From NCBI GenBank assembly GCA_036476895.1, contig JAZGCJ010000341.1, forward strand, positions 18,114 through 82,113: DNA of 64,000 nucleotides, read 5' to 3'. This DNA comes from Thermodesulfobacteriota bacterium (lineage in GTDB: Bacteria; Desulfobacterota_D; UBA1144; Nemesobacterales; JAZGCJ01). Positions 3,991-64,000 of this stretch are shown here, piece by piece (the stretch's first letter is position 1; each line of letters opens with the position of its first letter). The notes under the pieces are model-generated. The model worked only from the letters and a program-made list of their open reading frames with translations. It did not search any database and had not been told where the DNA came from. The translations under genes were made by a program, and so were the position numbers.

Positions 3991-4995
3991 TTAATAATGT
4001 CTGCACCCCGGAAAGTGAATGTTATATTTCATTAAGGTGGTATTCTTCATTGGCTTTTTCCCCTCAAGGCTTTTCAAGTGCTTTCGGGTGATGTCCTCAT
4101 CCCAATCAAACCAACCTATCTTACGGAATAGGCTTACAATTTGTTCAAGCCCAAAACTAGCAAAGAGTTCTAAGGCAGCGGCTACCCTGACCATATGCCT
4201 GGGATTCCAGCGTACAATGTGATTCAGGATACATGGTCTAATATATTGACCTAATAACAAACCTACCGGAACAGGAACCACTACTTCTCCTTCATCTTCA
4301 AAATTATCGCTTATTTGTCCTCTATAAATTTTCTTTGGTCGGTCTGGGAAAACCTTTTCAGGCTCAATGTGGTCAAACTCTTCAAAGTCTGGAAGGGTAC
4401 AATTTTCATAATCATAGTATTTAGGTTTATTTAATAGACCTTTGATTTGGCTTTCGTTGAGCTTATGAAAGTCAGGTGGTAAGTATGTGCAATATTTTAC
4501 GTTTTTTGGGGGTCGGCTAGAAGCAGGGATGCGTGTCATTTGTCTGATATCCCCAATCACACTGGTATCTACTTCTTTAGGTAATTTTTTAAGTACTAAG
4601 TTGATTAGACCCAATGCAGCCCGTTCCAGTGTTTTTTTTCGTTCCTGTTCGTCATCGATAACAGTCTTTTTAAATCTCACATACAGATGATACCCTTTTT
4701 TTCCCGATGCCACAGGAATAACACAAAATCCATAATCTATCCATGTTGTGTATAGGTATTTTGCCAGCAAGAAAGAACGTCCAAGATCAAGATCAAAAAA
4801 GACCTTATCAATGGTTTTGTTGTTCCCAAAGACCCCAATAAGTAAATTATGCATTCCTAGATTAGACTCAAAAAATAAATTTAATTCCTGTCGGCTCTTT
4901 ACCACCCTTCGTTGTGGAATCCCAACGTCCCGAGGACTAGTTGGTGTTACAGGAAATAAGCTATGAGTAATGGTGTGAAGTGCCACAATACTCAC
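3991..4995 (-). CDS. Archaeo-eukaryotic primase (AEP / PrimPol-like)
   Basis: AEP motif I VFFDLDL, motif II SGKKGYHLYV, motif III GDIRQMTRIPASSRP. 334 aa. Confidence 0.75.
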   Translation of the reverse strand: MSIVALHTITHSLFPVTPTSPRDVGIPQRRVVKSRQELNLFFESNLGMHNLLIGVFGNNKTIDKVFFDLDLGRSFLLAKYLYTTWIDYGFCVIPVASGKKGYHLYVRFKKTVIDDEQERKKTLERAALGLINLVLKKLPKEVDTSVIGDIRQMTRIPASSRPPKNVKYCTYLPPDFHKLNESQIKGLLNKPKYYDYENCTLPDFEEFDHIEPEKVFPDRPKKIYRGQISDNFEDEGEVVVPVPVGLLLGQYIRPCILNHIVRWNPRHMVRVAAALELFASFGLEQIVSLFRKIGWFDWDEDITRKHLKSLEGKKPMKNTTLMKYNIHFPGCRHY

Positions 4996-5915
4996 TCCAC
5001 GTTGGAGGGTTCTTCTGGTTCATCCTCTTCTTGTTCTGCAGTGTTTTCCATTGGAGCCATGAGGAAAGTAAATTTGGATTTTTCCGACTCAAAAATAACT
5101 CTAACAGCCCCTTCGTGATTATAGTGTAATTTTACATTATTTTGTAAATCTAGTTTTGTTAGATGTTCTAAATTTTCCAGGTCATAAGTAGATGCAATTG
5201 TTTTTTCTAAGCCATTCAAAGAAATGGATTCAATCTCATTAACCTCGTTTCCTTTTAGTCTTACCTTCACATCCGCTGCAACCGAACTTTCTGAACCACT
5301 AAGCAAACTAAAATTAACTTTTTTATCATCCAAAGTTTCTATGTGAATGTATCTTGTAGATTCATCTCCTACGTGGAGATCTTCTAATATTGTCTTGTAT
5401 CCTCCTCTTGTAAAGATAAGTTCACAATTCATTTCTTTTGTTAGGGCTACATTGGCCAATTTTTGTGTATGTTTGTAATCTATAGAATCTGAAGTTTCAC
5501 TATGCAATCTTAATCTGTAAGTTCGACTTCTTGAGGAATTAATGGATTGTATAGAGAGAGTTGCTCTTGAATCACCAGATGAGGCTTTTATTGTAACAAT
5601 GTCATCCGTTTGAGCTTTGGCTAAAATATCTTTGAGATCTTTTAAGTCTAACCAAAGAACAATATCTTCATCTACCTTTAAATCTGAAAACGCATCAGCT
5701 TCAAAGCTAAATTGGAAGAACATGGCTCCTGAACTTTCCATTGTGACACAGACACATCCCTGTTCTGAAAAGGCAAAGGGTTGTGTTCCACCTACAAAAG
5801 AGAGCAATCTTTCGACATAATTTTTTAATTCTTTTACTGTTCCGTTTTTAAATGTTGCTAACATAGTTTTTTCCTCATTGATTTTTATATTTTGTACTTC
5901 TGGAGTATTTCCCAT
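4992..5915 (-). CDS. PCNA-like sliding clamp
   Basis: 307 aa, two-domain size. C-terminus KFTFLMAPMENTAEQEEDEPEE resembles the PCNA C-terminus (..YYLAPKIEDEE). Operonic with primase and ATPase. Confidence 0.5.
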   Translation of the reverse strand: MGNTPEVQNIKINEEKTMLATFKNGTVKELKNYVERLLSFVGGTQPFAFSEQGCVCVTMESSGAMFFQFSFEADAFSDLKVDEDIVLWLDLKDLKDILAKAQTDDIVTIKASSGDSRATLSIQSINSSRSRTYRLRLHSETSDSIDYKHTQKLANVALTKEMNCELIFTRGGYKTILEDLHVGDESTRYIHIETLDDKKVNFSLLSGSESSVAADVKVRLKGNEVNEIESISLNGLEKTIASTYDLENLEHLTKLDLQNNVKLHYNHEGAVRVIFESEKSKFTFLMAPMENTAEQEEDEPEEPSNVE

Positions 5916-22270: not shown

Positions 22271-22826
22271 TATAGATTTCTGTCCTTATTTGTGTTAATA
22301 GTTCTACTAACTCATTAATGCTATCTACTTCGTTATGATGACGGGAAAAATCAGTTACCATCACATTAACGACATCGTTTAACTCTCTAATAGTTTGTAG
22401 CATGTCTTTATAATTAGTATTGTCTGCAATAAATCCTTGTATAAGAGGTCTCCCATTCTCATTAACAGGTCTAACATGAATGGTTACATCAATTCCTTTT
22501 CCGTCTTTTGTAAGCATCCCGATTTCATGGTATTCAACTTCATGTGTAGATCCTTCAAATCGTCTGAGAAGATTATCAATTACTCTCTCTTGGGAATCCA
22601 CATCAAAAAGTGTCTCAACCATTCTTCTAGGCCTATGTTCTATTGGAATTGCACTAATGAATTTGTTCCAGGATTCTACATCCCAACCTAACATAGCCTC
22701 AAACTGAGAATTTACTTTTTTAAGTAATCCAGTGGTGCCATCCATATAATAAATGCCGTAGGTAGTAATAGTTTCCAGAGAAGTTACTGTTCCAGTTAAT
22801 TTAGCCTCTAAGGATTGGCGTTCCAT
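22230..22826 (-). CDS. PAS-domain-like protein
   Basis: 198 aa. PAS-like core ...YYMDGTTGLLKKVNSQFEAMLGW...GMLTKDGKGIDVTIHVRPVNENGRPLIQGFIADNTNYKDM. An in-frame stop at 22983-22985 prevents upstream extension. Confidence 0.45.
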   Translation of the reverse strand: MERQSLEAKLTGTVTSLETITTYGIYYMDGTTGLLKKVNSQFEAMLGWDVESWNKFISAIPIEHRPRRMVETLFDVDSQERVIDNLLRRFEGSTHEVEYHEIGMLTKDGKGIDVTIHVRPVNENGRPLIQGFIADNTNYKDMLQTIRELNDVVNVMVTDFSRHHNEVDSINELVELLTQIRTEIYNAAREQQESQSEA

Positions 22827-23183
22827 AATCTCTTCTTTGTGGGAATTGATTAAAGAAGCGACATCGTTTTGAATATTAGTATATCTGTTGCCTAGCTCAA
22901 CATTCCTTTTATTGGCATAGTGCCATACTAAATAAATAAAAAAGCCATTCCCAATTATTATAGGAATTAAAAAGAATGTAACTAATTGTGATTCTGGGAT
23001 AATGCCAGAAGTCGATAGAGAAACAGAGATTAAGATAATAACAATAACGATTTGTTTTCCTGACTCTTTTAAAAATAAACTGAATTGTTGTTTGAATTTA
23101 ATTTGAGCATCTTCAACGAATTCATCTACCTTACTTTCTACATTGTCAGGTACTAAATCGGGGCTCAGTCATACCACCAAGCC

Positions 23184-23897: not shown

Positions 23898-24374
23898 CTA
23901 ATTAGTTGTTATCTTTTTTGTTGCTTTTTTAATTGCTTTTTTTGCTTTGGGATAATAAATTTCTACGTAATTTTTTTCAATCGGGTCATAAGTACCTTTG
24001 ATCTCAGAAAAAGGTCTAAATTTGATTCGGCCCCCGTTTTCTTCAATAACACGAACATGTTCTACTGCACCTTCCTCTTGAACTCTTTTCATAGCTTTTT
24101 TAAGTGATCTATGAAGTGAGTTATACCCCTTTTCACTATATCGTTGTTTGTATATAACAAGGTCAAAATTGGATTGAGGAGCTTCCTTAATAAAATATTC
24201 AAGATCACGGAGATTAATAAGCATTGTCACTTGATCGGGCAAAAGTGGGTAGTTGTTTTTATTTGGCTCAGAACGTCTTGTATGGGGATCTTCACCATGA
24301 TATAGTATTCCAGGGAATAAGAATGCCTTTATTCGTTTTTCTTGTTTTGGAAAATCATCATCTACATAAGCCAT
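23898..24374 (-). CDS. hypothetical protein
   Basis: 158-aa basic protein downstream of the capsid gene. Confidence 0.35.
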   Translation of the reverse strand: MAYVDDDFPKQEKRIKAFLFPGILYHGEDPHTRRSEPNKNNYPLLPDQVTMLINLRDLEYFIKEAPQSNFDLVIYKQRYSEKGYNSLHRSLKKAMKRVQEEGAVEHVRVIEENGGRIKFRPFSEIKGTYDPIEKNYVEIYYPKAKKAIKKATKKITTN

Positions 24375-24813
24375 TGAATTTAGAACCTTTTTTTATACTA
24401 AGAAATGTTAATGTAAATAATTCGGTGGGGATATATAATGTAGGGAAGTCTCAACTCCTTACCTCTCAAATCCCAAGAGAGTGAATCCTCTACGCCAATG
24501 TTAGCCAAGGTTTTGATACCAGCAGCACGGTCCTTACCCTTAGAACTGTTTAACCACTGATCGCAGAGTCCCGGACTTGAGGAGCATCCTGGAGTGCCTA
24601 TATATTCTTGGTAACGAAGTCCCATCAAGTATTTGTATAGAACAAATACATGGTGACTGAGGCTAATCAATCGGGCTCGGTTTTCTAAAAACATAGTTTT
24701 TTATTCCAAGCCCCTGAGTTTTTAGCTCAAGGGTTATTGACTAAAGATTTTGGTTTGCCGAATTATTTCGCTCACTACATAGATTTTTTTCAAGAATTTA
24801 AGTAATTTTTGTT

Positions 24814-27484: not shown

Positions 27485-29062
27485 TCACTTAATATTGTTC
27501 TTTACAATGCGGTCAATTTCGGCCACTGTAAGCGAATCAATGGCCCGTCTAAAAAAAGGTCGTGGTAATGTTCCGTTTTTTGCAATGGAAAAACGGATTG
27601 CGTTGGCAATCTTTAGAGCTTCTGCATCTCTTGTTTTTCTTTTCCTACCAGTTCCTGTAGATACTTGAACTCGAATCTTTCGCTTAACCCATGCCAGGAT
27701 TGGGTCTAATGGAGGCATGTGAGGTCGTGTGTTCCCACAAAAGGTTGGCTTCCCATTTCGTCTTACATAAAAGTTTCCATTTGAAACAGATAAACAGTAA
27801 ACCTTTCCTGAGTATGGGTAAAGTGAAACAGTTCTTGCATCCACCCACAAACTATTTGATTTCTTAATATATACAGTATAAGAAGGAAAATTACGTTTAT
27901 ACATTTTATTGTTAATACTGAATTCTCCTCTCAAGTCCCTAACTCCTATATAACTCCAAAAACCACACTTTAAGGCCAGTTCTTGAACATCACTGGCTAG
28001 ACCAATACTACTTGTATGGTACCTAGGATAAGAGCCAGAACTTGTTACAGCAGTACTTCCATCACCCACTAATAGTGCTTCAAGTAAACCCTCGGAAAAA
28101 GTTTTATTGTATTGGAGAAATTCCCGAGGAATTCGCTTAAAAGGAGCAAGTTTGTTTAATCCCTTTTTAGCTAACCAACTAACTAATTGAACATTTGAAA
28201 TTCTGAATTTTTTCCCATCGTAAATATATTTAAAAGGTAGTTTATCTAACACATTTTGGATATACAAGCAACCGTCTTGTTTTGTTTGTGATATATTTAA
28301 TCTATAATTTTTGTTAGGATATCGCTTGTCATTTTCAATATTACCTTCACTAATGATCAGTCCCAAAAAGTTTGCAAAGTTCAACGGATTAATTTTGAGT
28401 GTTGGTTTTTCTAAATCTATATACTCTTTCTGTTTCCCTAAGAAATGTTGTTCCATATATTTGTTAATTTCCACATCGATTAGAGAATTGCCTTTCCAGC
28501 TTCCAACAGTGGGTATGTATCCTCTGTATCCTTTTAAGATTGATTTTGCAGGTCTGAAATGTAGATTCTTTTTGTTCCTGTTATACATTAACATACGATG
28601 ATCTGGTGTGACCAACAGATCCAAATACCTATTTTTAAAATGTAATAAATCTCCTGACCAATCTCTCTCTGTTATTTTTTTAGGGTAGCTATATTCTATT
28701 TTACCACTCCTCACATTTAAAGTGCAGACAATATCATTAATTGTACATTTTGTAATTGATTTCCATCCATGTGTTGTTAGAACCTCTGTATCAGCAGAAT
28801 AACATCCAAACTCGATGAACGGGGCATGAAAAGCATCGAAGATAACTTTTTTCTTTAATCTTTTTCGTTCAACTCTTCCAGAACGAGCTAGTGTTCCTCT
28901 ATCAAAAGCACCTTCGCCTATTGCAGGTGAGAAATTAGCGGACCGTAAGTTTTCATCTGCTTCGCTTAGGACAAAATCAGCCATGTCATCTAAGGCTCGG
29001 TCAAGTTGATCTAAGAAATCATCGTAGATTTTTTCAACTGTATCCCCCAAAAGTTTGACCAT
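27485..29062 (-). CDS. HK97 gp10-family virion protein interrupted by an intein with LAGLIDADG homing endonuclease
   Basis: N-extein ends FHAPFIEFG. Intein starts CYSADTEVLTTHGW (block A), has block B LLVTPDHRML and LAGLIDADG-like FLGLIISEGNI and LLEALLVGDGST, and ends VYCLSVSNGNFYVRRNGKPTFCGN. The +1 residue is T, followed by RPHMPPLDPILAW (gp10-family ...YVEFGT..MPA.P.L pattern). Confidence 0.65.
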   Translation of the reverse strand: MVKLLGDTVEKIYDDFLDQLDRALDDMADFVLSEADENLRSANFSPAIGEGAFDRGTLARSGRVERKRLKKKVIFDAFHAPFIEFGCYSADTEVLTTHGWKSITKCTINDIVCTLNVRSGKIEYSYPKKITERDWSGDLLHFKNRYLDLLVTPDHRMLMYNRNKKNLHFRPAKSILKGYRGYIPTVGSWKGNSLIDVEINKYMEQHFLGKQKEYIDLEKPTLKINPLNFANFLGLIISEGNIENDKRYPNKNYRLNISQTKQDGCLYIQNVLDKLPFKYIYDGKKFRISNVQLVSWLAKKGLNKLAPFKRIPREFLQYNKTFSEGLLEALLVGDGSTAVTSSGSYPRYHTSSIGLASDVQELALKCGFWSYIGVRDLRGEFSINNKMYKRNFPSYTVYIKKSNSLWVDARTVSLYPYSGKVYCLSVSNGNFYVRRNGKPTFCGNTRPHMPPLDPILAWVKRKIRVQVSTGTGRKRKTRDAEALKIANAIRFSIAKNGTLPRPFFRRAIDSLTVAEIDRIVKNNIK

Positions 29063-47817: not shown

Positions 47818-49497
47818 TCATCTATTCATGCTTGTTACGAGTTCCGCCCCTGAGCTAATTCTGTCAGATCCAATAACCGTTAGCCATAAAGACATCATAC
47901 AATCGTTATGAGCCGTTACATGTTCTATTTTACTTTCCTCATTCATAATATATCCCCGCATTTCAAAGAATAAATTTTCCATTCCATCTGATAATGGGGC
48001 ATAAGCAGGATAACGAAGCCTCTCATTTTCCATGTGCATCCGTAATTTTGGCAATCCCATTTCGAGATCTTTTACCTCAGATCCAGTATGGTAAGGTAAA
48101 ATTGGAATACTTGTGGTTTGTGTCAATTCTTGAGCTAATACTTTCTGGTATTGGTTGGATTCAATGACTAGTAAGTCAAAATTATATCTAATGTTAAAAT
48201 CTTTGATCAATTGTTTTTGTTGAATATAAGGCAGACCTTTTCTCCGTTCTACCCATAATACATCATAGCGATAATTTTTGGTAATGCCAATCACTGTAAT
48301 TACAAAGTAGTCTGCCGAGGTTTCTGCTGATATGGCAAGATCTACTCCGCCTACAATGTTTTTATACCATAATGATTTACCATTTTCATCATAGAATCTC
48401 TGGTATAGCATTTCTCGGTCAAGATCGTGGCATCTCTCAACTGTTGCGTCAGGATAGAGTTGGGAGCCTGCAGCAATATATCTACATAGAAAATTCCTGG
48501 TAAATGCTAAATTGCCGATTCCTTTGAGCCGTTTTAACAATCGTGCTCGTGGCCATCGTTCCTTCCACAATACAGGAGATCCAGGATGTTTTTTAAAATA
48601 GGCAATTTCCTTTCCTAACAAGGCTTCATGGCGGAAAATTTTGCCACTTTTCGCCATGAATAGTTCATTCTTTTTGAGTTCATTTATAAGATCAGTTTGT
48701 CGGTAAGGAGTGCCAACTACTATAAATAGTGTGTCCTCACCTCCGAGATTCAAGACAATATTGAAAAACCAGCGTTTTGTTTGTCGGTCTGTCATATTGG
48801 CTTTGTCAAACGGAACAATGTCGTCACACACAATTATGTTAGGTCGTTTCCGAAGTGCTCTAGCCCCGGCAACTTGTTTACCCGAACCTCCGGCTAAACA
48901 TTTTGAGCCGTTCAAGAACCGAAAACTTTCGTTGCCCCATTTTCGGGGATGTTTTAGGATATGGAAAATTGTCTCATTGAGGAAATCCTTAATATTTTCA
49001 CTGCGTTCCTCAGCTTGTCCTTTGGTGGATGAAAAAATAACTACGTAGCTGCCGGGATGGAAAATCATATACCACAGGATATATATTTCCATTAACGTAG
49101 ATTTGCCATGTTCTCGGGGAATTTCTATTAATATATGGGTATTGTTTTTATCCCGCAGCTCTTTGATGATTGGCTTTTGAAATTTCGCTATTTTGAAGCC
49201 GTAATAATGCTCCATAAAGAAGTTAAAATTTTTGGAGGCTTTTTGCATGTAATAGCGTTCGAGAGGATCTTTGATATCAGTCAGATATGCTTTCCATTCC
49301 GTGTCTTTGGCATGGCATGCTTTGCATAAGTCTAAAGCCCTCCCAATTGGATAATCTTCAGTTACAACGATATCGCAAGAAGTGCAATGCACAGTACGAT
49401 TTAATATTGCCTGGCATTCCGCACAGGTTGGTCCCTCAACCACAGGCCGCTTGCAGTAATCGCAAAATTGTGTCTCGACTACCGCCCTCGCTTTCAT
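47818..49497 (-). CDS. terL: terminase large subunit (N-terminal zinc ribbons, ATPase, nuclease)
   Basis: 559 aa. Walker A IEIPREHGKSTLMEI, Walker B NIIVCDDIVPFD, nuclease-domain acidic motif GGVDLAIS...DYFVITVIG. N-terminal CDYCKRP...CAECQ...CTSCD...CKACH. Confidence 0.75.
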   Translation of the reverse strand: MKARAVVETQFCDYCKRPVVEGPTCAECQAILNRTVHCTSCDIVVTEDYPIGRALDLCKACHAKDTEWKAYLTDIKDPLERYYMQKASKNFNFFMEHYYGFKIAKFQKPIIKELRDKNNTHILIEIPREHGKSTLMEIYILWYMIFHPGSYVVIFSSTKGQAEERSENIKDFLNETIFHILKHPRKWGNESFRFLNGSKCLAGGSGKQVAGARALRKRPNIIVCDDIVPFDKANMTDRQTKRWFFNIVLNLGGEDTLFIVVGTPYRQTDLINELKKNELFMAKSGKIFRHEALLGKEIAYFKKHPGSPVLWKERWPRARLLKRLKGIGNLAFTRNFLCRYIAAGSQLYPDATVERCHDLDREMLYQRFYDENGKSLWYKNIVGGVDLAISAETSADYFVITVIGITKNYRYDVLWVERRKGLPYIQQKQLIKDFNIRYNFDLLVIESNQYQKVLAQELTQTTSIPILPYHTGSEVKDLEMGLPKLRMHMENERLRYPAYAPLSDGMENLFFEMRGYIMNEESKIEHVTAHNDCMMSLWLTVIGSDRISSGAELVTSMNR

Positions 49498-52011: not shown

Positions 52012-52521
52012 CTAAATTAAACCAAATTTTCTAAGAACGGAATCTTCACTATCGGCTTCAACTTTATCGCCAGTAGGTGATAAAATATCGCCACCAAAGA
52101 TCTCATTCTCTAACGAGTCTAATAATTGTTGATTTGTTCCTTTTTTTTTCAGATCTATTATCAATTGGACATGATCATCAACAGGAGCACTTTCATTTTC
52201 AAAATATCGGTTATAACATCGGTTTCCTTTTAATCTGGATAAAGGTTCAAAACACATCCAAAGATCTACCCCGGTAACATTTCCTTTTTCATCCTTCTCC
52301 GGATAATGAGGAATTTTTAGTATAAGCAAATCTTTGATTTGTTCTTCTGATGGATGATAGCTAAAACCGTCTCCGTTTTCATCTACCAACCTGTTACAGA
52401 TTGCACAGTGTTTTATATATCCAGCAATACCACAATGAATACAATATCTTGGGTATTTAGGTGCTCTTGGAGAATCACGATCTCCACAAATTTTACAATA
52501 GCTCATTTTTGTTTTCACCAT
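52012..52521 (-). CDS. zinc-ribbon protein
   Basis: 169 aa, CKICGD...CIHCG...CAICN. Preceded by a hairpin-pair leader element. Confidence 0.4.
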   Translation of the reverse strand: MVKTKMSYCKICGDRDSPRAPKYPRYCIHCGIAGYIKHCAICNRLVDENGDGFSYHPSEEQIKDLLILKIPHYPEKDEKGNVTGVDLWMCFEPLSRLKGNRCYNRYFENESAPVDDHVQLIIDLKKKGTNQQLLDSLENEIFGGDILSPTGDKVEADSEDSVLRKFGLI

Positions 52522-52586: not shown

Positions 52587-53003
52587 TTAATAGTCTTCTG
52601 GCAACATTATGGTATAATGAGGGGCATTTTCCTCAATCTCATTCATACAAACCCAAACTTCAATTTTTACGCCATTGGGGGATTCAACTTTGATATTGTA
52701 GAAATGATCAGGCTCGGTTGTCAAATTTTTTGTCTTAAGTTTAATGGCATGTAAGCTATTATTCAAAAGATCAATTAAATTTGGTACATTGACTGAATCT
52801 TCTTCCGAATTCCAATAATTATGAGTTCTCAAGAGATTCATAGTTGCATGGGTTATCAAAGAGTTAAATAGATTCACGTTTTTGAATTGGGTTCTGATAT
52901 CAAATAAGATACCATCTTCTGTTGCTTGCTGACTACTGTATTCGCTTATGACGAATAAATCGTCAGATTCCTTTTGTGTCATGTTTGGTTCACTAGCCTC
53001 CAA
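52587..53003 (-). CDS. hypothetical protein
   Basis: 138 aa. Confidence 0.35.
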   Translation of the reverse strand: MEASEPNMTQKESDDLFVISEYSSQQATEDGILFDIRTQFKNVNLFNSLITHATMNLLRTHNYWNSEEDSVNVPNLIDLLNNSLHAIKLKTKNLTTEPDHFYNIKVESPNGVKIEVWVCMNEIEENAPHYTIMLPEDY

Positions 53004-53071: not shown

Positions 53072-53353
53072 TTACTCGGTCTCGGATGCTTCACTCGCCC
53101 GTAAGGGCCTAGTAACGCTCCCCGAAGGGAGTCTCTCCTCGCCAATGTTATCATGGCTTGTTCGGCCTAACACACTGTTCGCTACCCCGGCAAACTGTTT
53201 AATGTTAGACGACATTGCTGCAGACTGGAGAAGCATCCACAGGTGTCCTAACCATAATAACGGAGTCCATACAATCACTTGCATATCATTCCAAGGCTGG
53301 TCAAGCAGTTGTTTGGGGAGTTCTTGACCGTTGATATCATTCCTTACCAACAA
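53072..53353 (-). CDS. hypothetical small protein
   Basis: 93 aa. Driven by the conserved promoter cassette at 53354-53410. Confidence 0.35.
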   Translation of the reverse strand: MLVRNDINGQELPKQLLDQPWNDMQVIVWTPLLWLGHLWMLLQSAAMSSNIKQFAGVANSVLGRTSHDNIGEERLPSGSVTRPLRASEASETE

Positions 53354-53948: not shown

Positions 53949-53961
53949 ATTGCCCCCAAGC

Positions 53962-53989
53962 AAAAAAAAGGTAACTCCGAAGAGTTACC
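53962..53989 (-). terminator. intrinsic terminator for minus-strand transcripts (8-bp stem, CGAA/UUCG loop, flanked by A8/T8)
   Basis: aaaaaaaa-GGTAACTC-CGAA-GAGTTACC-aaaaaaaa on the + strand. On the minus strand the hairpin is followed by U8. Confidence 0.55.
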
Positions 53990-54039
53990 AAAAAAAACCC
54001 CGCAAAAACTTATAAAGTCAAGACCTTGTTTTTGTTTTG

Positions 54040-54260
54040 TAAGTACTTCGGTACAAGCCTAGGTCGGGAATCGACCAATGTTACGCCTATCTGAGGTTAT
54101 GGCCTCTGCTGATCTGTAGTCGGTTGTTTTTAAATGGCTCATTGCAGGAACGTAAGCTAGATCAATGAAGTAGGAAACTCAGTTTTCTGAGTAGTTCATA
54201 AGATGCCTAAGGATTCCAGTTAAGAGGGATCAAAATTTGGGTAAGGGAGTATTTTTTTTC
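54040..54260 (+). ncRNA. candidate structured ncRNA, copy C of a 2-member family
   Basis: ORF-free GC-rich segment with GTAC-UUCG-GUAC and GGTCG-GGAAT-CGACC hairpins. Shares blocks GGCCTCTGCT (54101), CGGTTG (54121), GATCAATGAA (54160) and GTTCATAAGATGCCTAAGGATTCCAGTTAAG with 10600-10800 at matching spacing. A TATA-like cttataaag lies about 30 nt upstream and a T8 run at 54253-54260. Confidence 0.45.
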
Positions 54261-54354
54261 TAATTCGGTTTTCCATATCATAGTTGGTTCACCTGTATAA
54301 GGCTTTCCCCTAAAAAGGGAAAGGTGATTACTTAAGGCAATCAATCTGAGATAC

Positions 54355-59738: not shown

Positions 59739-60353
59739 ATGTACAACAGATATAGAGACCACTCGACTAATTCGCTTCTGTCCGAGTTAGACAAAAGAGT
59801 CAAAGAAATGGAACAGAATAAGATTGATGAAATAGATAAGCTCAAAGCTGAAGTTTCTAATATCCAAAAACGGACAGCCAATTTGAAAAAGGCTAACTTA
59901 GATACCGAAATGATTCGTGGCCAGTTGAAAGCTATTAATTTGGTAGAAATGGATTTCCGCTATATTATCCAGGATCTCAATAACTATTTTGAGCAATTGC
60001 ATCACCTTCGACAGCGGATTGATCCGGAGAATAAAATCTATAAAACACGGTATAAACAACTTTTCTACACAATTCCACCAACTGTTTTTCAAATAGGAAA
60101 GGAAATCTTTGTAGTTTATGATGAAGAATCTTTGGATCATACCAAAGAGGACATCGACAAAGGTGTAAAGAAATTTCTTGCTGAAATGGAAGAAGATAAC
60201 TTAGAATGGGATGCCGAAGAAGTTATTACTCAGATTTTTGCAGGTAAGGGTCGTTATGAGCAAATAGAATATTTCCATTATGAGGAAACCGAACAGTTGA
60301 TTGACACGCCTCTAGTGAACGTGATCTATTTCAAACCCTCCAAATACTACTAA
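59739..60353 (+). CDS. coiled-coil protein
   Basis: ATG at 59739 preceded by a GGTAGGG-TGAA-CCCTACC hairpin containing GTGAAC. The listed ORF starts at the GTG at 59727. Confidence 0.4.
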   Translation: MYNRYRDHSTNSLLSELDKRVKEMEQNKIDEIDKLKAEVSNIQKRTANLKKANLDTEMIRGQLKAINLVEMDFRYIIQDLNNYFEQLHHLRQRIDPENKIYKTRYKQLFYTIPPTVFQIGKEIFVVYDEESLDHTKEDIDKGVKKFLAEMEEDNLEWDAEEVITQIFAGKGRYEQIEYFHYEETEQLIDTPLVNVIYFKPSKYY

Positions 60354-60363
60354 GTGAGCTAAT

Positions 60364-60543
60364 ATGAAAACTAGATATGCAGTCCAATTGACTGATCCGA
60401 CTTTACTCGTGCAACCATATTTACCCTGGATAAAACATGTAGATTCTCTAGAAGATGGTTTACCCTTTGTAGAGGAAATTCGGACTAAAAACATTGGCAA
60501 AGAATACTATATACAACTTGTTATTTCTCAACGAGAGAGATAA
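60364..60543 (+). CDS. small protein, tandem paralog 1 (59 aa, below ORF-track cutoff)
   Basis: MKTRYAVQLTDPTLLVQPYLPWIKHVDSLEDGLPFVEEIRTKNIGKEYYIQLVISQRER. Next to a second copy beginning MKTRYAVQLIDP... Confidence 0.4.
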   Translation: MKTRYAVQLTDPTLLVQPYLPWIKHVDSLEDGLPFVEEIRTKNIGKEYYIQLVISQRER

Positions 60544-60545
60544 AT

Positions 60546-60713
60546 ATGAAAACCAGATATGCAGTACAGTTGATTGATCCAAATCAACTCGGTTCATCTC
60601 TAATTTCTATGGAAACATTGGAAAAAGCTTTAGAGTTTGTAAAAGGTCTTGAAAGGGAAAACAAGAATAAAGAATATATTATTCAGATTGTTATTTCCCA
60701 TCGAGAGAAGTAA
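60546..60713 (+). CDS. small protein, tandem paralog 2 (55 aa)
   Basis: MKTRYAVQLIDPNQLGSSLISMETLEKALEFVKGLERENKNKEYIIQIVISHREK. Followed by a terminator. Confidence 0.4.
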   Translation: MKTRYAVQLIDPNQLGSSLISMETLEKALEFVKGLERENKNKEYIIQIVISHREK

Positions 60714-60716
60714 CTA

Positions 60717-60751
60717 GGAAAACAGACGACAGTTTGTCTTCCCTTTTTTTT
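60717..60751 (+). terminator. intrinsic terminator (10-bp stem with one mismatch, T8)
   Basis: GGAAAACAGAC-GACA-GTTTGTCTTCC followed by CTTTTTTTT. Confidence 0.5.
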
Positions 60752-60757
60752 ATCACT

Positions 60758-61198
60758 TTACAAGTATTGACTTAATACCGTTAGTTTCTTCGTTTTCAGT
60801 TTATTTAGAATTAAATCTGCCTTGGTTTTTCCCTTATGACAAGTTTCGCATAAGGTTCGAAGGTTATCTTTGTCAAAATAATCTCCTCCATTTACAACAG
60901 CTACTATATGATCAATTTCTAAATAATCGGGGCTTTTGCAAAGCACACACTTATATTTATCACGTTCTAATATTAATAATCTTAATCCCGTCCAAGAGAA
61001 ATTTAGCCAATATTTTTTATAACATTTATCTGAACAATAAGATTTACGTCTTCCTAATAATATTTTTCCACAATAAAAACATTTACCGTGTTGTTGTGGA
61101 TAAAGAAACCTACCTCTTGGATGATACAATTTACCCGTTTTTATATTAGCGTAATAACGTTTTTCAGGCTCTATTGGATAGGTTTCGTAATTGATCAT
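60758..61198 (-). CDS. HNH endonuclease
   Basis: 146 aa. Zinc ribbon CFYCGK...CSDKC. HNH core YLEIDHIVAVVNGGDYFDKDNLRTLCETCHKGK. Confidence 0.7.
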   Translation of the reverse strand: MINYETYPIEPEKRYYANIKTGKLYHPRGRFLYPQQHGKCFYCGKILLGRRKSYCSDKCYKKYWLNFSWTGLRLLILERDKYKCVLCKSPDYLEIDHIVAVVNGGDYFDKDNLRTLCETCHKGKTKADLILNKLKTKKLTVLSQYL

Positions 61199-61570
61199 TT
61201 TCGACTCCTAACTTACTAGTATTTACAAATCTGGTTCAGCTATAACCGTTATTTTATAATTAGAATCACGCATTAGTTTTTCTAATTTCTCTTTAAATAA
61301 TTCATATTCTTCTAATTTTGATTTTCCAGAAATTTCTAATGTAATTTTCATAATTTTCCTAAACTCCAAACTTTTATGATACCAATTCAACTCAAAAGTC
61401 TTGCAATTCCATATAGAAAATCTCTAAAGTGTCATCAGAATCATCATCTGCCAGGGTAACATAAACATCCCACATAGGATGCCTTTTTAGAAATTCTTTA
61501 TGTCCAGGAGTTAATTCACTAAAGTCTTTCCATTTTTGCTTCTCTGTTTGGCTCATAATAATCCACTAAC

Positions 61571-61831
61571 TTATTCTGGGTCATAGAGGTACGCACAATA
61601 GGGACAAGCAATTTCATCCCCGTCATGGGATTTCTCGCATTTTGGGCATTGAACCTTTAAGATATCCTTAGCCTCTTTATCTTTTTCATACCCATCAGGC
61701 CATCCATACTGCTCACGCCTCAGCCATTCTTTCTCTGCCTCAGGTAGATTATCAGGTATGAAATTTATAATACCAATTTTTTCTTTCTTTTTTGACATAA
61801 TTTTGCACATCCAAATTCTACCATTATTCAA
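61571..61831 (-). CDS. zinc-ribbon small protein
   Basis: 86 aa, CPKCEK...CPYCA. Confidence 0.35.
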   Translation of the reverse strand: MNNGRIWMCKIMSKKKEKIGIINFIPDNLPEAEKEWLRREQYGWPDGYEKDKEAKDILKVQCPKCEKSHDGDEIACPYCAYLYDPE

Positions 61832-61848
61832 GTTTTTAAATAGTTTCC

Positions 61849-62130
61849 TTGTATCATCGGATCATGGAAGACTTGATGGGAATTGTTGTTTTGGCCGCAT
61901 TAACGGGAGCAGGAGTTGCATTTGTATTATCTATATTCCTATTACCTGGGATGGATTTTCTTTTAGCCCTAATAAGAGAGGCTTTTTATAGAGCTAGAAC
62001 TAATTGGCTAATTAAGAAAGGGGTAATTAAAATAGAACACCGCAAATGGGAGTTCACTGGAGTAGATATTGAAACAGGGGTATTAAAAATGCGTGAGGTT
62101 TTGGACCTTAACGAGGAACTCGATACTTAG
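61849..62130 (+). CDS. small membrane protein
   Basis: 93 aa. Hydrophobic N-terminal half LMGIVVLAALTGAGVAFVLSIFLLPGM. Confidence 0.35.
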   Translation: MYHRIMEDLMGIVVLAALTGAGVAFVLSIFLLPGMDFLLALIREAFYRARTNWLIKKGVIKIEHRKWEFTGVDIETGVLKMREVLDLNEELDT

Positions 62131-62384
62131 GGATATCCAATTGCATTTCCAAATTTTTTTGGACCCTGACCTGGACATTTAAGCAACCCGTTTCTGTCGT
62201 TCTTTCTACTGGTAGGGAAGGAGAAGACCAGGTTGAAGCATCGTAAAGCTGTTTTAAATGTGAAAAACCTCGTTAAATTCAACGAGGTTGGAGACACATC
62301 TTGACAGATGATGCACCTGCTTTGAAGTCTGGTGCTGGTTATAGAACGAGAGGTCGGGAATTTTTCCCGTTTATTCAGTTCTTC

Positions 62385-62459
62385 GGAAAATTTCTTGATT
62401 ATTCAAAAGTTGGGAAAATTTCCACATTATTCAAAAGTTGAGAAAATTTCCAAAAAAAA
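62385..62459. repeat. tandem 28-nt direct repeats (2.7 copies), iteron-like
   Basis: GGAAAATTTCTTGATTATTCAAAAGTTG / GGAAAATTTCCACATTATTCAAAAGTTG / AGAAAATTTCCAAAAAAAA. Lie within a 560-nt ORF-free, hairpin-rich region. Confidence 0.6.
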
Positions 62460-62693
62460 TAGTGAAAGTAGATCAAAAAAAGAATTATAGGCCAGATCTA
62501 CTTTCGTTGTCCAACTTTAGGAATACATGACAATTGGTAGTTATAATCTAATCTTAAAAATCTATTGGCACGGATTTCGTGCTAGTGGCCAAGTTTTTTG
62601 GCCAACAAAGATTTAAAATGAAAAAAAAAGATTCTAACTTCTTTGTTAGTGATTTCATTCTAAAATTGTCTTATACATATACTATTTAAAGGG

Positions 62694-63299
62694 GTGTCCT
62701 TTGTCGTAGGCTTGGTTTTTATTATGACAATAATTAAATTTAATCATCGATTAACAATTGAGCAAGGCATTGATCTCGATCCTGCAATTAAAAAAGGGGA
62801 TAGTTATCATGACATGCTTTCAACTTTTAGAATCTCTCAGGGTGAATTGTGCACAAAAAGTTATTTGGCAGAACAGTGTAAAACTCCCAAACAGATAACT
62901 CAAATATTATTGATGCTTATATTAGAGAAAAAAATTAATAGATACTATCTTAGACTAACAAAGGATAGTACCTTTCATTCTTTTTATGTCTATGGTGATG
63001 TAAACCCCGCCCGCCATGAGCAAGAAATTATTGGGTTTGATGTGTTCAGCTGTAGCCAAGAACACCTTTTTTCATTTTTAAAACAGCATCCTATGAAAGG
63101 GTTTACACTTAAGGAATTGAGGCAAATTGGATTTGAAGGCTCATTATGGGATAAGCTAAAAAAACTATGGAATAAAGGGTTAATTGTCCGGGAGAAAATC
63201 ATTGTCACATATCGTCCCCAACATCGATATTATTATTATTCTTCCAAGGATATCGAAAGATTACTTGTAAAAGATAAGGATGACGAAAAAAACGAGTAA
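62694..63299 (+). CDS. hypothetical protein, tandem paralog A (true start likely ATG near 62724)
   Basis: Block KKINRYYLRLTKDSTFHSFYVYGD...SQEHLFSFLKQHP...FTLKELRQIGF is paralogous to the next gene. A TACTATTTAAAGG TATA-like element lies about 35 nt upstream. Confidence 0.45.
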   Translation: MSFVVGLVFIMTIIKFNHRLTIEQGIDLDPAIKKGDSYHDMLSTFRISQGELCTKSYLAEQCKTPKQITQILLMLILEKKINRYYLRLTKDSTFHSFYVYGDVNPARHEQEIIGFDVFSCSQEHLFSFLKQHPMKGFTLKELRQIGFEGSLWDKLKKLWNKGLIVREKIIVTYRPQHRYYYYSSKDIERLLVKDKDDEKNE

Positions 63300-63918
63300 C
63301 CGTCTTAGTTTTGTGATGTCAATGGAATATAAAACATTTAATGAGCACATGAGCTTTGAAAATCCAGAAGATTTCTCCGACCTTGAATATGTTTGGAATG
63401 ATGAGTCCTATTTTAATTTTGAAAACCATTTGAAACAACACTCTGGAGAACCGCAATGTATAGATGTCTTCTTTAAAGCACTCGGAAGAAAACCTTATGT
63501 ATTGCATGCCCTTAATCAATTAGTAATTGAGAGAAAAGTAGATAGATATTATTTGCGGTTACCTAAAGAAAAAAAGTTTAAGAGGTATTACCTTCATGGT
63601 AGGCCTAATGCTGAATTGATTGACCAGTTTGTAGGATTTAGCCCTTTTGCCAACAGTCAAGAACATCTCTATGACTTTTTCTATGAACACCCAGGGGAAA
63701 CTTATAATTTGAAACAGCTTAAGGAAGTAGGATTTACAGGACGAATAGACAGGAAGTTAGCGATTTTAGTTTCCAAAGATCTCATTTTTGATTTTGGCAC
63801 AGGGAAAAAACAAAACCGTAATAAGGTATATTTTTATTTACCTCCGACAGGAGAGACTCAATTAATGGAGGATGGAGCTGAAAACAAGTTTTTGATCTTG
63901 CCTGATCCAGAATATTAA
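63280..63918 (+). CDS. hypothetical protein, tandem paralog B
   Basis: Block RKVDRYYLRLPKEKKFKRYYLHGR...SQEHLYDFFYEHP...YNLKQLKEVGF is paralogous to 62694..63299. Confidence 0.45.
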   Translation: MTKKTSNRLSFVMSMEYKTFNEHMSFENPEDFSDLEYVWNDESYFNFENHLKQHSGEPQCIDVFFKALGRKPYVLHALNQLVIERKVDRYYLRLPKEKKFKRYYLHGRPNAELIDQFVGFSPFANSQEHLYDFFYEHPGETYNLKQLKEVGFTGRIDRKLAILVSKDLIFDFGTGKKQNRNKVYFYLPPTGETQLMEDGAENKFLILPDPEY

Positions 63919-64000
63919 AAAAGGCCGTAAATTGCCGAGAAAGCCGCCGGGAAAGTCACTTAGAAATCCCCCTCACACTCCCCCTAGTTACTAGTAATAC

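What the first reader, a model, noticed from the sequence alone, without database searches (positions are those of the whole stretch)
62131..62693. 560-nt non-coding block with iteron-like tandem repeats and multiple perfect palindromes: candidate replication origin
This is the largest ORF-free block in the window. It contains 2.7 tandem copies of a 28-nt unit (62385-62459). It also carries perfect palindromes: AACCTCGTT-AAATTC-AACGAGGTT (9 bp), AGTAGATC-(19 nt)-GATCTACT, and TGGCCAA-GTTTT-TTGGCCA. It has A/T-rich tracts and a GGTCGGGAAT motif also found in the ncRNA-like element. Directly repeated iterons plus dyad elements plus AT-rich DNA is the classic origin architecture. It lies between the small-gene region and a pair of paralogous genes.
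Basis: partly seen in the sequence, partly recalled or inferred. Interest (0 to 1): 0.5.

Follow-up and report, generated by a model that had tools for sequence, protein, structure and literature searches.

The report
Repeat-rich control region, possible viral origin
A 560-base gene-free stretch near one end of a novel archaeal tailed-virus genome carries four evenly spaced palindromic boxes, long hairpins and A-tracts next to two virus-specific DNA-binding-type genes; it is a real protein-docking control region that could be the replication origin, but the sequence alone cannot tell this from a transcription switch.

Summary
Window 62131-62693 is the largest gene-free block. It holds the contig's only non-coding tandem repeat: four 28-bp units, not 2.7, each with a GGAAAATTTCC-type palindrome. 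It also holds two of the ten perfect inverted repeats of at least 9 bp, including the longest (11 bp).

All these motifs occur only here. The window is an archaeal tailed virus: PCNA, XPF, PolB and AEP primase are present, and the capsid protein matches only archaeal viruses. So sigma-70, DnaA and Dam logic do not apply.

The origin reading is plausible but unproven. The cumulative GC-skew minimum (61858) lies about 0.3 kb away, but it coincides with the switch of gene strand. AT-richness is high but not extreme. No Orc1/Cdc6, Rep or ORB-like element is present. The flanking paralogues are orphan winged-helix-type proteins. No related genome exists in any collection searched, so conservation and repeat-number variation could not be tested.

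Best reading (about 0.35): an iteron-like protein-assembly site that acts as an origin. The close rival (about 0.3) is an operator or activator array for local promoters. It is a new member of a known kind, of modest interest.

The parts
62131..62693 (.). Whole gene-free block between the 93-aa membrane-type gene and the first winged-helix paralogue. It may extend to 62723 if the ATG at 62724 is the real start.
   Evidence: Gene calls on the source contig leave a 563-nt gap. Only short ORFs lie inside: the few with an ATG start are at most 34 aa, the longer ones (up to 56 aa) start with GTG or TTG, and none looks like a gene. No Rfam family matches.
62149..62164 (+). Hairpin TCCAAA-TTTT-TTTGGA containing a T7 run (62154-62160). 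Probable archaeal-type terminator of the upstream 93-aa gene.
   Evidence: Read from the sequence. The function is inferred from the oligo-T rule for archaeal termination (my own knowledge).
62208..62339 (+). Imperfect palindrome of about 130 nt (a rod-like hairpin), centred on the perfect 9-bp palindrome.
   Evidence: RNA fold of the + strand gives -44.2 kcal/mol, z -3.5, 0 of 200 shuffles as good. The - strand gives -34.3, z -3.1. The DNA fold gives z -3.2. It ranks 28 of 5366 GC-corrected windows, so it is notable but not unique.
62266..62289 (.). Perfect palindrome AACCTCGTT-AAATTC-AACGAGGTT.
   Evidence: The perfect dyad is found only here; the single arm also occurs at 5241.
62353..62464 (+). 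Array of four 28-bp direct repeats. The dyad cores lie at 62356-62368, 62385-62395, 62413-62423 and 62441-62451, with centres exactly 28 bp apart. Three TTATTCA boxes alternate with them.
   Evidence: A PWM of the unit finds no other copy in 64.5 kb: the next best hit scores 14 bits, against 27-36 for the array copies.
62452..62481 (+). A8 and A7 tracts. Together with the A4 tracts of the last repeats they form a run of A-tracts, all on the + strand and roughly 10-11 bp apart. On the - strand they read as T-runs.
   Evidence: list of homopolymer runs. Bending of the DNA and blocking of leftward transcription are inferences.
62464..62505 (.). Perfect 11-bp inverted repeat GAAAGTAGATC / GATCTACTTTC with a 20-bp spacer. 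The spacer holds the TATA-like AATTATAG (62483-62490).
   Evidence: longest perfect inverted repeat in 64.5 kb. The arm motif occurs only here. Fold z is -4.9 and -3.6.
62562..62604 (+). Two adjacent small hairpins: CTATTGGCACG-GATTT-CGTGCTAGTGG and TGGCCAA-GTTTT-TTGGCCA. The second has a T6 run in its loop.
62612..62690 (+). AT-rich promoter zone of the paralogue genes. It has TATA-like ATTTAAAA (62612-62619) and TATTTAAA (62683-62690). This is the least stable duplex in the block.
   Evidence: It matches the virus's own promoter box WTTTAAAG seen upstream of many genes. Duplex stability is at the 99.6-99.8th percentile.
62694..63299 (+). Paralogue 1 (201 aa by the contig's gene call, GTG start at 62694; 191 aa from the ATG at 62724). 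Orphan protein with a predicted winged-helix C-terminal domain.
63280..63918 (+). Paralogue 2 (212 or 198 aa). The C-terminal winged-helix domain is modelled at pLDDT 70-82.
61849..62130 (+). Upstream 88-93-aa gene with a hydrophobic N-terminus. It is leaderless-type, with the TATA box TTTTTAAATAG at 61832-61842 shared with the divergent gene at 61571-61810(-). The cumulative G-C minimum (61858) lies here.

Best explanation
The block is a single-copy, cis-acting DNA element of an archaeal head-tailed virus. It lies about 2 kb from one end of the 88-kb contig.

Its core is an array of four dyad-symmetric boxes (GGAAAATTTCC type, invariant GAA-N3-TTC) spaced exactly 28 bp apart. On the left is an imperfect palindrome of about 130 nt. 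On the right are A-tracts and a perfect 11-bp inverted repeat.

The most likely mechanism is as follows. Dimers of a sequence-specific DNA-binding protein occupy the four boxes. The simplest candidates are the two virus-specific winged-helix paralogues encoded immediately downstream. The bound dimers build a higher-order nucleoprotein complex. That complex distorts or melts the neighbouring A/T-rich and palindromic DNA. The virus-encoded replisome (AEP-type primase, DUF3987-type helicase-like protein, PCNA, RFC-like loader, PolB) can then start. In other words, it would work like an iteron-type origin, such as the lambda O-some or a plasmid Rep-iteron origin.

Shown here: the repeats, their symmetry, their spacing, their uniqueness and their statistical excess; the archaeal nature of the virus; the winged-helix character of the neighbouring gene products (weakly); and the position of the skew turn.

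Inferred: who binds, that binding occurs at all, and that the output is replication rather than transcription.
For: - Four phased dyad boxes with no indels, and invariant core bases despite divergence of the spacers. Unit 1 differs from unit 3 in 8 of its last 13 positions, yet it keeps a perfect 5-bp-arm dyad.
- The box, the 11-bp inverted-repeat arm and the paired 9-bp palindrome occur nowhere else in 64.5 kb, as expected for a one-per-genome site.
- Inverted repeats are in excess (P about 0.01), and the longest perfect one in the contig lies here.
- Order of elements: repeats, then A-tracts, then an inverted repeat, then genes for two tandem winged-helix-type proteins. This recalls iteron replicons, in which WH1-WH2 Rep proteins bind 3-7 iterons (PMC4980987).
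- The cumulative G-C minimum is at 61858, within 0.3-0.6 kb of the element, and the windowed skew keeps one sign over the other 19 kb viewed.
- An archaeal precedent exists for a stem-loop of about 100 nt acting as an origin for a primase/SF3-helicase/winged-helix replication protein (pRN1, PMC4234260). Here a hairpin of about 130 nt abuts the array.
- No integrase was found, so a lysogeny-switch reading loses weight.
Against: - The skew turn coincides with the change of gene strand, so it is not independent evidence.
- 28 bp is 2.67 helical turns, whereas classic iterons are 17-22 bp and in helical phase.
- The DNA next to the repeats is not the least stable in the block or in the genome.
- The paralogues match no initiator family. 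Their structural matches are MarR/PadR/ScpB/C34-type winged helices, all above E 0.001, and none is a Rep protein.
- The replication genes are more than 54 kb away on the contig.
- No ORB-like elements are present.
- There is no comparative support at all, because no relative was found.
- Repeat arrays in phage genomes have been judged not to be origins elsewhere (phage BIP-1, in PMC4234260).
Confidence: 0.35

Rival explanations
1. Transcription control region. The four dyad boxes would be operator or upstream-activator sites for a dimeric winged-helix regulator, probably the adjacent paralogues acting on themselves or on a short local transcript. The 11-bp inverted repeat would bracket a TATA-like box so that a bound dimer blocks TBP/TFB. 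This would make the block a temporal (early) switch at the genome end.
For: - Dyad-symmetric sites in regular arrays are typical of operators.
- The inverted-repeat arms flank AATTATAG symmetrically.
- The block sits in the small-gene, mixed-orientation region that looks like an early or regulatory module.
- The neighbouring proteins resemble MarR/PadR-type regulators as far as anything can be said: PDB profile E 0.05, Pfam PadR E 0.03, and Foldseek hits dominated by MarR/PadR folds.
- BJ1 and phiH-type archaeal viruses carry winged-helix repressors (PMC2194725).
Against: - The boxes lie 230-330 nt upstream of the best promoter of the paralogues (TATA at 62683-62690). They are also more than 220 nt past the end of the upstream gene, so they overlap no promoter of a recognisable gene.
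- The TATA-like box inside the inverted repeat matches the virus's own promoter consensus only partly.
- No integrase was found, so a lysogeny switch is not expected.
- A different palindrome, CAATGCATTG, is the motif actually spread over this virus's promoters.
Confidence: 0.3
2. RNA-level features. The left half would be a structured 3' UTR or a small non-coding RNA on the + strand (long hairpin 62208-62339, ending at the CGGGAA-TTT-TTCCCG hairpin plus T-run at 62355-62372). The other hairpins and T/A runs would be terminators that insulate neighbouring transcription units. The repeats would be incidental.
For: - The + strand hairpin is 10 kcal/mol more stable than the - strand version, through G-U pairs, with z -3.5.
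- This part has 42-50% GC in a 37% GC genome.
- Terminator-like sites on the + strand at 62355-62369 and 62562-62588.
- T-runs bound the segments: + strand at 62154, 62361 and 62594; - strand (as A-runs) at 62452, 62475 and 62621.
Against: - No Rfam family matches, even at E up to 10.
- The hairpin ranks only 28 of 5366 windows, and its GC is at the 92nd percentile.
- The repeat array itself does not fold better than shuffles on the + strand (z -0.9).
- The dyad cores would make RNA stems of only 4-5 bp.
- There are no homologues for a covariation test.
Confidence: 0.12
3. No dedicated function. The array would be a recent slipped-strand tandem duplication of a 28-bp segment that happened to contain a palindrome, lying in a spacer that also holds ordinary terminator hairpins.
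For: - Units 2-4 are very similar (86% by TRF).
- Tandem duplications are common in non-coding viral DNA (my own knowledge).
- No conservation data exist (and the searches listed under the best explanation).
Against: - Unit 1 has diverged in the spacer yet keeps both the dyad core and the exact 28-bp register.
- The unrelated perfect 9-bp and 11-bp inverted repeats cluster in the same 563 nt (P about 0.01).
- It is the largest gene-free block in an otherwise tightly packed genome.
Confidence: 0.1
4. Another DNA transaction site near the genome end. This could be a packaging-recognition site (pac/cos-like), a centromere-like partition site for an episomal carrier state, or an attachment site.
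For: - The block lies 1.8-2.4 kb from the contig end. The last 584 nt of the contig are also non-coding, as at the left end of HVTV-1, where the first gene starts at 541.
- Tandem arrays of dyad sites are typical of plasmid centromeres (my own knowledge).
Against: - The large terminase (47818-49497) and the gene next to it are 13 kb away.
- No ParA-type ATPase, integrase or tRNA is present in the 83.8 kb seen.
- The true genome ends are unknown, because the last 4.2 kb of the contig could not be fetched.
Confidence: 0.08

Closest known systems
Iteron-type origins: phage lambda ori (four dyad-symmetric O-binding repeats, then an AT-rich region, then a palindrome) and Rep_3 plasmid replicons (pPS10, pSC101, F, R6K, P1)
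   Same: - Three to seven direct repeats bound by an initiator built of winged-helix domains.
- An adjacent A/T-rich segment and an inverted repeat.
- The gene for the winged-helix protein lies next to the repeats (PMC4980987; the lambda layout is from my own knowledge).
- Here there are four repeats, A-tracts, an 11-bp inverted repeat, and then two tandem winged-helix-type genes.
   Different: - The period is 28 bp (2.67 turns), not 17-22 bp in helical phase.
- The repeats have internal dyad symmetry, which is like lambda but unlike plasmid iterons.
- There is no sequence or fold match to Rep_3 or lambda O.
- The host is archaeal, so DnaA boxes and Dam logic do not apply.
- The AT-rich part is not the genome's stability minimum.
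pRN1-type origin of Sulfolobus plasmids (a stem-loop of about 100 nt used by a prim-pol/SF3-helicase/winged-helix replication protein)
   Same: - An archaeal mobile element with an AEP primase and an SF3/D5-like helicase.
- A long imperfect stem-loop in non-coding DNA (PMC4234260; hairpin 62208-62339).
   Different: - In pRN1 the stem-loop lies directly downstream of the replication gene. Here the helicase-like gene is more than 70 kb away on the contig.
- The hairpin here is not an outlier in the genome.
- pRN1 has no repeat array.
Archaeal chromosomal origins (ORB / mini-ORB repeats around an AT-rich unwinding element, next to orc1/cdc6)
   Same: Repeated short dyad elements near A/T-rich DNA in an archaeal replicon.
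   Different: - The window shows no cluster of ORB-like TTCCAGTGGAAAC elements (the consensus was recalled from memory).
- No orc1/cdc6 gene lies in the 83.8 kb seen.
- The boxes are direct repeats, not inverted around the AT-rich part.
Operator / UAS arrays of archaeal and phage winged-helix or HTH regulators (for example lambda OR/OL, Ss-LrpB's three regularly spaced 15-bp boxes, the phiH/phiCh1 repressor-operator regions)
   Same: - Regularly spaced dyad-symmetric boxes in a control region.
- Next to the gene of a small winged-helix protein.
- An inverted repeat around a TATA-like box. The named examples are from my own knowledge.
   Different: - The boxes do not overlap the promoter of any recognisable gene.
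- There are four boxes spread over 100 bp, more than 230 nt from the regulated candidate.
- There is no lysogeny module.

Membership tests
Iteron-type replication origin (lambda ori / Rep_3 plasmid oriV) | Three or more direct repeats of one binding site in one orientation. | tested here: met
   Four units at 62353, 62381, 62409 and 62437.
Iteron-type replication origin (lambda ori / Rep_3 plasmid oriV) | Repeats of 17-22 bp spaced in helical phase (about 11 or 22 bp). | tested here: not met
   The period is exactly 28 bp, or 2.67 turns. Only units 1 and 4 (84 bp apart) are in phase. The iteron lengths come from PMC4980987.
Iteron-type replication origin (lambda ori / Rep_3 plasmid oriV) | An adjacent DNA-unwinding element that is the local stability minimum. 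| tested here: inconclusive
   A8/A7 tracts at 78% AT abut the array. However, the least stable DNA of the block is 62591-62690, and about a dozen loci elsewhere are as unstable or more so.
Iteron-type replication origin (lambda ori / Rep_3 plasmid oriV) | A cognate initiator of a known family (Rep_3, lambda O, RepA_N) encoded nearby. | tested here: not met
   There are no Pfam or PHROG hits at the default cut-off. Only a weak PadR hit (E 0.03) and a weak MarR hit (E 0.05) appear. No Rep protein is among the 50 listed Foldseek matches for either model.
Iteron-type replication origin (lambda ori / Rep_3 plasmid oriV) | Supports initiation or autonomous replication. | not testable with these tools
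   This needs coverage profiling, 2D gels or an ARS assay.
Archaeal ORB/Orc1-Cdc6 origin | ORB or mini-ORB elements flanking an AT-rich region. | tested here: not met
   A consensus scan gives only scattered 2-3-mismatch hits. The single hit in the block (62202-62214) has 3 mismatches.
Archaeal ORB/Orc1-Cdc6 origin | An adjacent orc1/cdc6 gene. | tested here: not met
   The Pfam scans of the window's larger ORFs and the precomputed Pfam marks on the gene calls of L001, L002 and L124 show none in the 83.8 kb seen. The last 4.2 kb of the contig were not seen.
pRN1-type stem-loop origin | A long (about 100 nt) conserved stem-loop. | tested here: inconclusive
   A hairpin of about 130 nt is present (z -3.5), but it ranks only 28 of 5366 windows and its conservation cannot be tested.
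pRN1-type stem-loop origin | Location directly downstream of the primase-helicase replication gene. | tested here: not met
   The AEP-like gene is at 3991-4995, and the DUF3987-like gene lies about 10 kb beyond the window's left edge.
Operator array of a winged-helix regulator | Dyad-symmetric sites that overlap or abut a promoter (TATA/BRE/TSS). | tested here: inconclusive
   The boxes are dyad-symmetric. The only promoter-like element nearby is the weak AATTATAG inside the 11-bp inverted repeat. The strong TATA boxes lie at 62612 and 62683.
Operator array of a winged-helix regulator | A regulator gene with an HTH or winged-helix domain adjacent. | tested here: met
   The C-terminal domain of paralogue 2 is modelled at pLDDT 70-82 as H-H-H-beta-beta. 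Single-domain Foldseek alignments to MarR, ArsR and Z-alpha winged helices have probability 0.95-1.0 and rmsd 2-3.4 A, but their E-values are above 0.001.
Any described RNA family (Rfam 15) | A covariance-model match at or near the gathering score. | tested here: not met
   There are no gathering-level hits in the block. The best sub-threshold hit inside it scores 20 bits against a cut-off of 72.

The most novel reading that the evidence does not exclude
The block together with the two orphan tandem winged-helix genes is a self-contained Rep-iteron-like replication module of an archaeal head-tailed virus. The origin would be opened by a new family of winged-helix initiators that then recruit the virus's own PolB/PCNA/RFC/primase machinery. 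This would be the first defined origin-initiator pair for the large archaeal Caudoviricetes, and an archaeal counterpart of bacterial iteron replicons.
Probability: 0.15. Interest if true: 0.6.

Novelty: new member of a known kind. Interest (0 to 1): 0.3.

Why it matters
My literature searches found no mapped replication origin for archaeal tailed viruses that carry their own eukaryote-like replisome. A defined cis element with a candidate binding protein would give a concrete handle for studying how such viruses start replication. It could also provide parts for building shuttle vectors for uncultured archaeal lineages.

As it stands, the finding is an annotation-level candidate in a single orphan metagenomic contig. 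Its value is mainly as a precise target (62340-62520 plus the two paralogues) for binding, coverage and transcript-mapping experiments.

Tried and rejected
- Relatives of the locus were sought and not found.
  - blastn of 60000-64000 against 50,697 phage records gave no match.
  - The search for related loci in IMG/VR with paralogue 1, the CxxCxxCC protein, the 208-aa protein and the terminase gave nothing.
  - An exact repeat pattern gave nothing in IMG/VR or in JGI metagenomes.
  - The 11-bp inverted-repeat pattern in metagenomes gave two unrelated chance palindromes.
  - The word-index search and the full HMMER search of 1.84 billion representatives with the paralogues returned only the proteins themselves.
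  - So conservation, covariation and repeat-number variation could not be tested.
- A loose two-box pattern in genome contigs returned more than 119 scattered single hits across all phyla, which is chance. That scan was wasted.
- Walking along the contig:
  - A query with the N-terminal 115 aa of the DUF3987 protein found nothing.
  - A second walk reached record position 83,794 of 88,028.
  - The far end of the contig, and therefore circularity or terminal repeats, remains unseen.
- The sigma-70 reading (TGGACA-18-TATAAT on the minus strand, 11 of 12 matches) was rejected once the virus proved archaeal.
- The Dam/GATC idea was rejected: 234 GATC against 220 expected, and only two in the block.
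- The GGTCGGGAAT link to the 53949-54354 block was rejected as chance.
- Coding potential inside the block was rejected. The ORFs there are short: those with an ATG start reach at most 34 aa, the longer ones (up to 56 aa) start with GTG or TTG, and none looks like a gene.
- An analogous repeat region was sought in HVTV-1; none was found in its first 50 kb.
- Structure prediction gave low overall confidence (pLDDT 41 and 48), so only the C-terminal domain assignment is used.
- L002 never appeared in the script sandbox. The cumulative-skew script therefore covers the window plus the 502-nt tail only. The rest of the skew picture comes from composition_profile.
Full report
WHAT THE WINDOW IS

The window belongs to an 88,028-bp metagenomic contig (NCBI GCA_044345325.1, JAZHCF016853949.1). 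Window position 64000 lies 502 nt from one contig end. The same proteins are also filed under a Thermodesulfobacteriota MAG, which is probably a binning error.

The contig encodes a head-tailed virus:
- large terminase, portal, prohead protease, SU10/HK97-type capsid protein and tail tube;
- replication genes of the archaeo-eukaryotic type: ERCC4/XPF-HhH nuclease, family B polymerase, an AEP small-subunit-like primase and PCNA;
- further left, a RecB-like nuclease, an RFC/Rad17-like AAA+ protein and a DUF3987-type (faint) helicase-like protein.

The capsid protein matches only archaeal tailed viruses among 50,697 phage records: HVTV-1 and HCTV-1/5 at 33-35% identity (E 5e-42), and a Methanofastidiosa virus. 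Upstream regions show TATA-like WTTTAAAG boxes either about 27 nt or about 50 nt before start codons. I therefore treat it as an archaeal virus. I drop the bacterial signals (sigma-70, DnaA boxes, Dam) that the 'classic origin' picture implies.

THE OBSERVATION

The tandem repeat is found by TRF: period 28, 2.6 copies, 86% matches, 62381-62452. It extends to a fourth, more diverged unit upstream. The units start at 62353, 62381, 62409 and 62437. Each unit has a dyad core (GGGAATTTTTCCC, GGAAAATTTCT, GGAAAATTTCC, AGAAAATTTCC). The centres are exactly 28 bp apart and the bases GAA-N3-TTC are invariant. Units 1-3 also share a TTATTCA box halfway between the cores.

The perfect palindromes are:
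- 62266-62289: 9-bp arms, loop 6;
- 62586-62604: 7-bp arms.

I add one feature. The 9-bp palindrome is the tip of an imperfect palindrome of about 130 nt (62208-62339). On the + strand it folds at -44.2 kcal/mol, z -3.5.

The block is the largest gap between called genes: 563 nt, with 492 and 406 nt next.

IS IT MORE THAN CHANCE?

Yes.
- Two perfect inverted repeats of at least 9 bp in 563 nt, against 0.14 expected from dinucleotide shuffles (P about 0.01). Only ten exist in 64.5 kb, and the 11-bp one is the longest.
- This is the only non-coding three-copy phased repeat; the only comparable array lies inside a tail-fibre-sized gene.
- A weight matrix of the unit finds no other copy in the contig.
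- The dyad box, the 11-bp arm and the paired 9-bp palindrome are unique to this place.
- Both strands of the block fold better than shuffles, z about -5.

The shared GGTCGGGAAT 10-mer is compatible with chance. The AT-richness (up to 78%) is high but is matched or exceeded at a dozen other loci.

CONTEXT

On the left is an 88-93-aa gene with a hydrophobic N-terminus. Its leaderless-type TATA box is shared with a divergent gene. A T7 run just after its stop codon (62154-62160) probably ends that transcript.

On the right are two paralogous genes: 31% identity, E 5e-25. They have no homologue in 5.8 billion clustered proteins or in a full HMMER scan of 1.84 billion representatives, and no Pfam or PHROG family. 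AlphaFold models are poor overall (pLDDT 41 and 48). The C-terminal domain of paralogue 2 is the exception: it is modelled at pLDDT 70-82 as helix-helix-helix-strand-strand. Foldseek matches for both models are almost all winged-helix proteins: MarR, PadR, ArsR, ScpB, Pol III C34 and RTP. All have E above 0.001, and none is a plasmid Rep protein. Weak sequence hits (MarR in PDB at E 0.05, PadR in Pfam at E 0.03) fall on the same domain. So they are probably DNA-binding winged-helix proteins, possibly with two such domains. Nothing says whether they regulate or initiate.

No Orc1/Cdc6, MCM, Rep, integrase, ParA or tRNA was found in the 83.8 kb of the contig I could see.

The cumulative G-C minimum over the window plus its tail is at 61858, about 270 nt left of the block. 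The windowed skew keeps one sign across the further 19.3 kb fetched. So the refuting result ('minimum elsewhere') is not seen.

The minimum, however, falls exactly at the divergent promoter where gene orientation switches. All called genes from 58.9 kb leftwards but a few lie on one strand. The skew may therefore simply follow transcription. The same caution was voiced for archaeal virus BJ1 (PMC2194725).

WEIGHING THE READINGS

An array of four identical dyad sites with strict spacing, which kept its cores while the spacers drifted, argues for a site where dimers of one DNA-binding protein assemble. Its uniqueness in the genome argues for a one-per-genome function.

The order of elements is repeats, then A-tracts, then an inverted repeat, then winged-helix genes. 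This resembles lambda ori and iteron plasmids, whose Rep proteins are WH1-WH2 proteins binding 3-7 iterons (PMC4980987; the lambda layout is from my own knowledge). The adjoining long hairpin recalls the pRN1 origin used by a primase/SF3-helicase protein in archaea (PMC4234260).

Against an origin:
- The 28-bp period is not in helical phase.
- There is no distinguished unwinding element beside the repeats.
- No known initiator is present.
- The replication module is far away.
- No ORB-like elements are present (the consensus is from memory).

The same features fit an operator or activator array almost as well. There are dyad boxes, an inverted repeat symmetrically bracketing a TATA-like AATTATAG, MarR/PadR-like neighbours and a regulatory-looking small-gene region. 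Yet the boxes overlap no promoter of a recognisable gene. The palindrome that actually recurs at this virus's promoters is a different one, CAATGCATTG.

RNA-level readings get some support. The + strand hairpin is stabilised by G-U pairs, the left half is relatively GC-rich, and T-runs delimit the segments. But no Rfam family matches, the structure is not an outlier, and the repeat array itself is not structured as + strand RNA.

Confidences:
- origin-like assembly site: 0.35
- transcription control: 0.30
- RNA or terminators: 0.12
- neutral duplication: 0.10
- other end-proximal DNA site (packaging, partition, attachment): 0.08

The first two are not mutually exclusive.

COMPARISON WITH WHAT IS KNOWN, AND NOVELTY

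The element works most like an iteron origin or an operator array. It cannot be filed as a member of any defined family. It fails the spacing and initiator criteria of iteron replicons, the ORB and Orc1 criteria of archaeal chromosomal origins, and the positional criterion of pRN1-type origins.

It is best described as a new, orphan member of a known kind of cis-acting repeat and dyad control region. Interest is modest (0.3). The sequence features are solid and the virus is unusual, but the function is undecided and there is no comparative support. If the block and the two orphan winged-helix genes proved to be a self-contained origin-initiator module (probability about 0.15), it would be, as far as my literature searches show, the first defined origin for archaeal tailed viruses with their own replisome.

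Noticed in passing
window 24481-24741 (-) and 53127-53328 (-): Two full-length matches to HEARO RNA (RF02033, 109 and 108 bits; the omega-RNA of IscB-type nucleases) in what is an archaeal tailed virus. Each is followed on the same strand by an ORF with no Pfam hit: 23898-24374 (158 aa) after the first, and 52587-53003 (138 aa) then 52012-52521 (169 aa) after the second. None is a full-size IscB.
   Followed up: partly
window 8473, 10103, 34022, 37204, 45838, 45899, 47803, 51654, 55048, 55945 and others: The palindrome CAATGCATTG is enriched: 13 sites with up to 1 mismatch against 3.2 expected, and 0 of 100 shuffles reach that number. Most sites lie in intergenic promoter regions. It is probably the binding site of a genome-wide regulator.
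   Followed up: partly
upstream of the genes starting at window 10171(+), 35552(+), 54736(-), 9601(-) and 39177(+): A conserved promoter and 5'-leader cassette of about 80 nt recurs...ACGGAAGATACAAAAGTATTTAAAGTCTGGAATGyAATATATTACTTGTGAACAAnnATG. A GTGAAC(C/A)A motif lies 4-8 nt before the ATG of at least 10 genes, and looks like a Shine-Dalgarno site of the GGTGA type.
   Followed up: no
window 27485-29062 (-): A 525-aa protein combines an HK97-gp10-like tail-component domain at its N-terminus with a LAGLIDADG_3 homing-endonuclease domain (residues 325-380). This suggests an intein or a homing-endonuclease insertion in a structural gene.
   Followed up: no
window 53949-54354, 22692-23183 and 63919-64000 (the last continuing to the contig end at L001 11223): Three other gene-free blocks of 406, 492 and 584 nt. 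The last is the contig terminus, and it resembles the 540 nt that precede the first gene of HVTV-1. It could be a terminal repeat or a genome end.
   Followed up: partly
window 10225-10847 (+): Three adjacent 143-nt windows here have the most negative or nearly the most negative GC-corrected folding energies of the contig (residual z -3.4 to -3.8), stronger than the hairpin in the finding. This is a possible structured RNA or a set of structured leaders.
   Followed up: no
window 60364-60543 and 60546-60713 (+): Two tandem paralogous mini-genes of 59 and 55 aa, both starting MKTRYAVQL. Their DNA is 84% identical over 49 nt.
   Followed up: no
whole contig (L001, L002, L124): The proteins of this viral contig are labelled in NCBI as coming from a Thermodesulfobacteriota MAG (locus tags V3U54_13320 and V3U54_12825). 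The replication genes and the capsid are archaeal-virus-like, so the binning is probably wrong and the host is an unidentified archaeon.
   Followed up: partly
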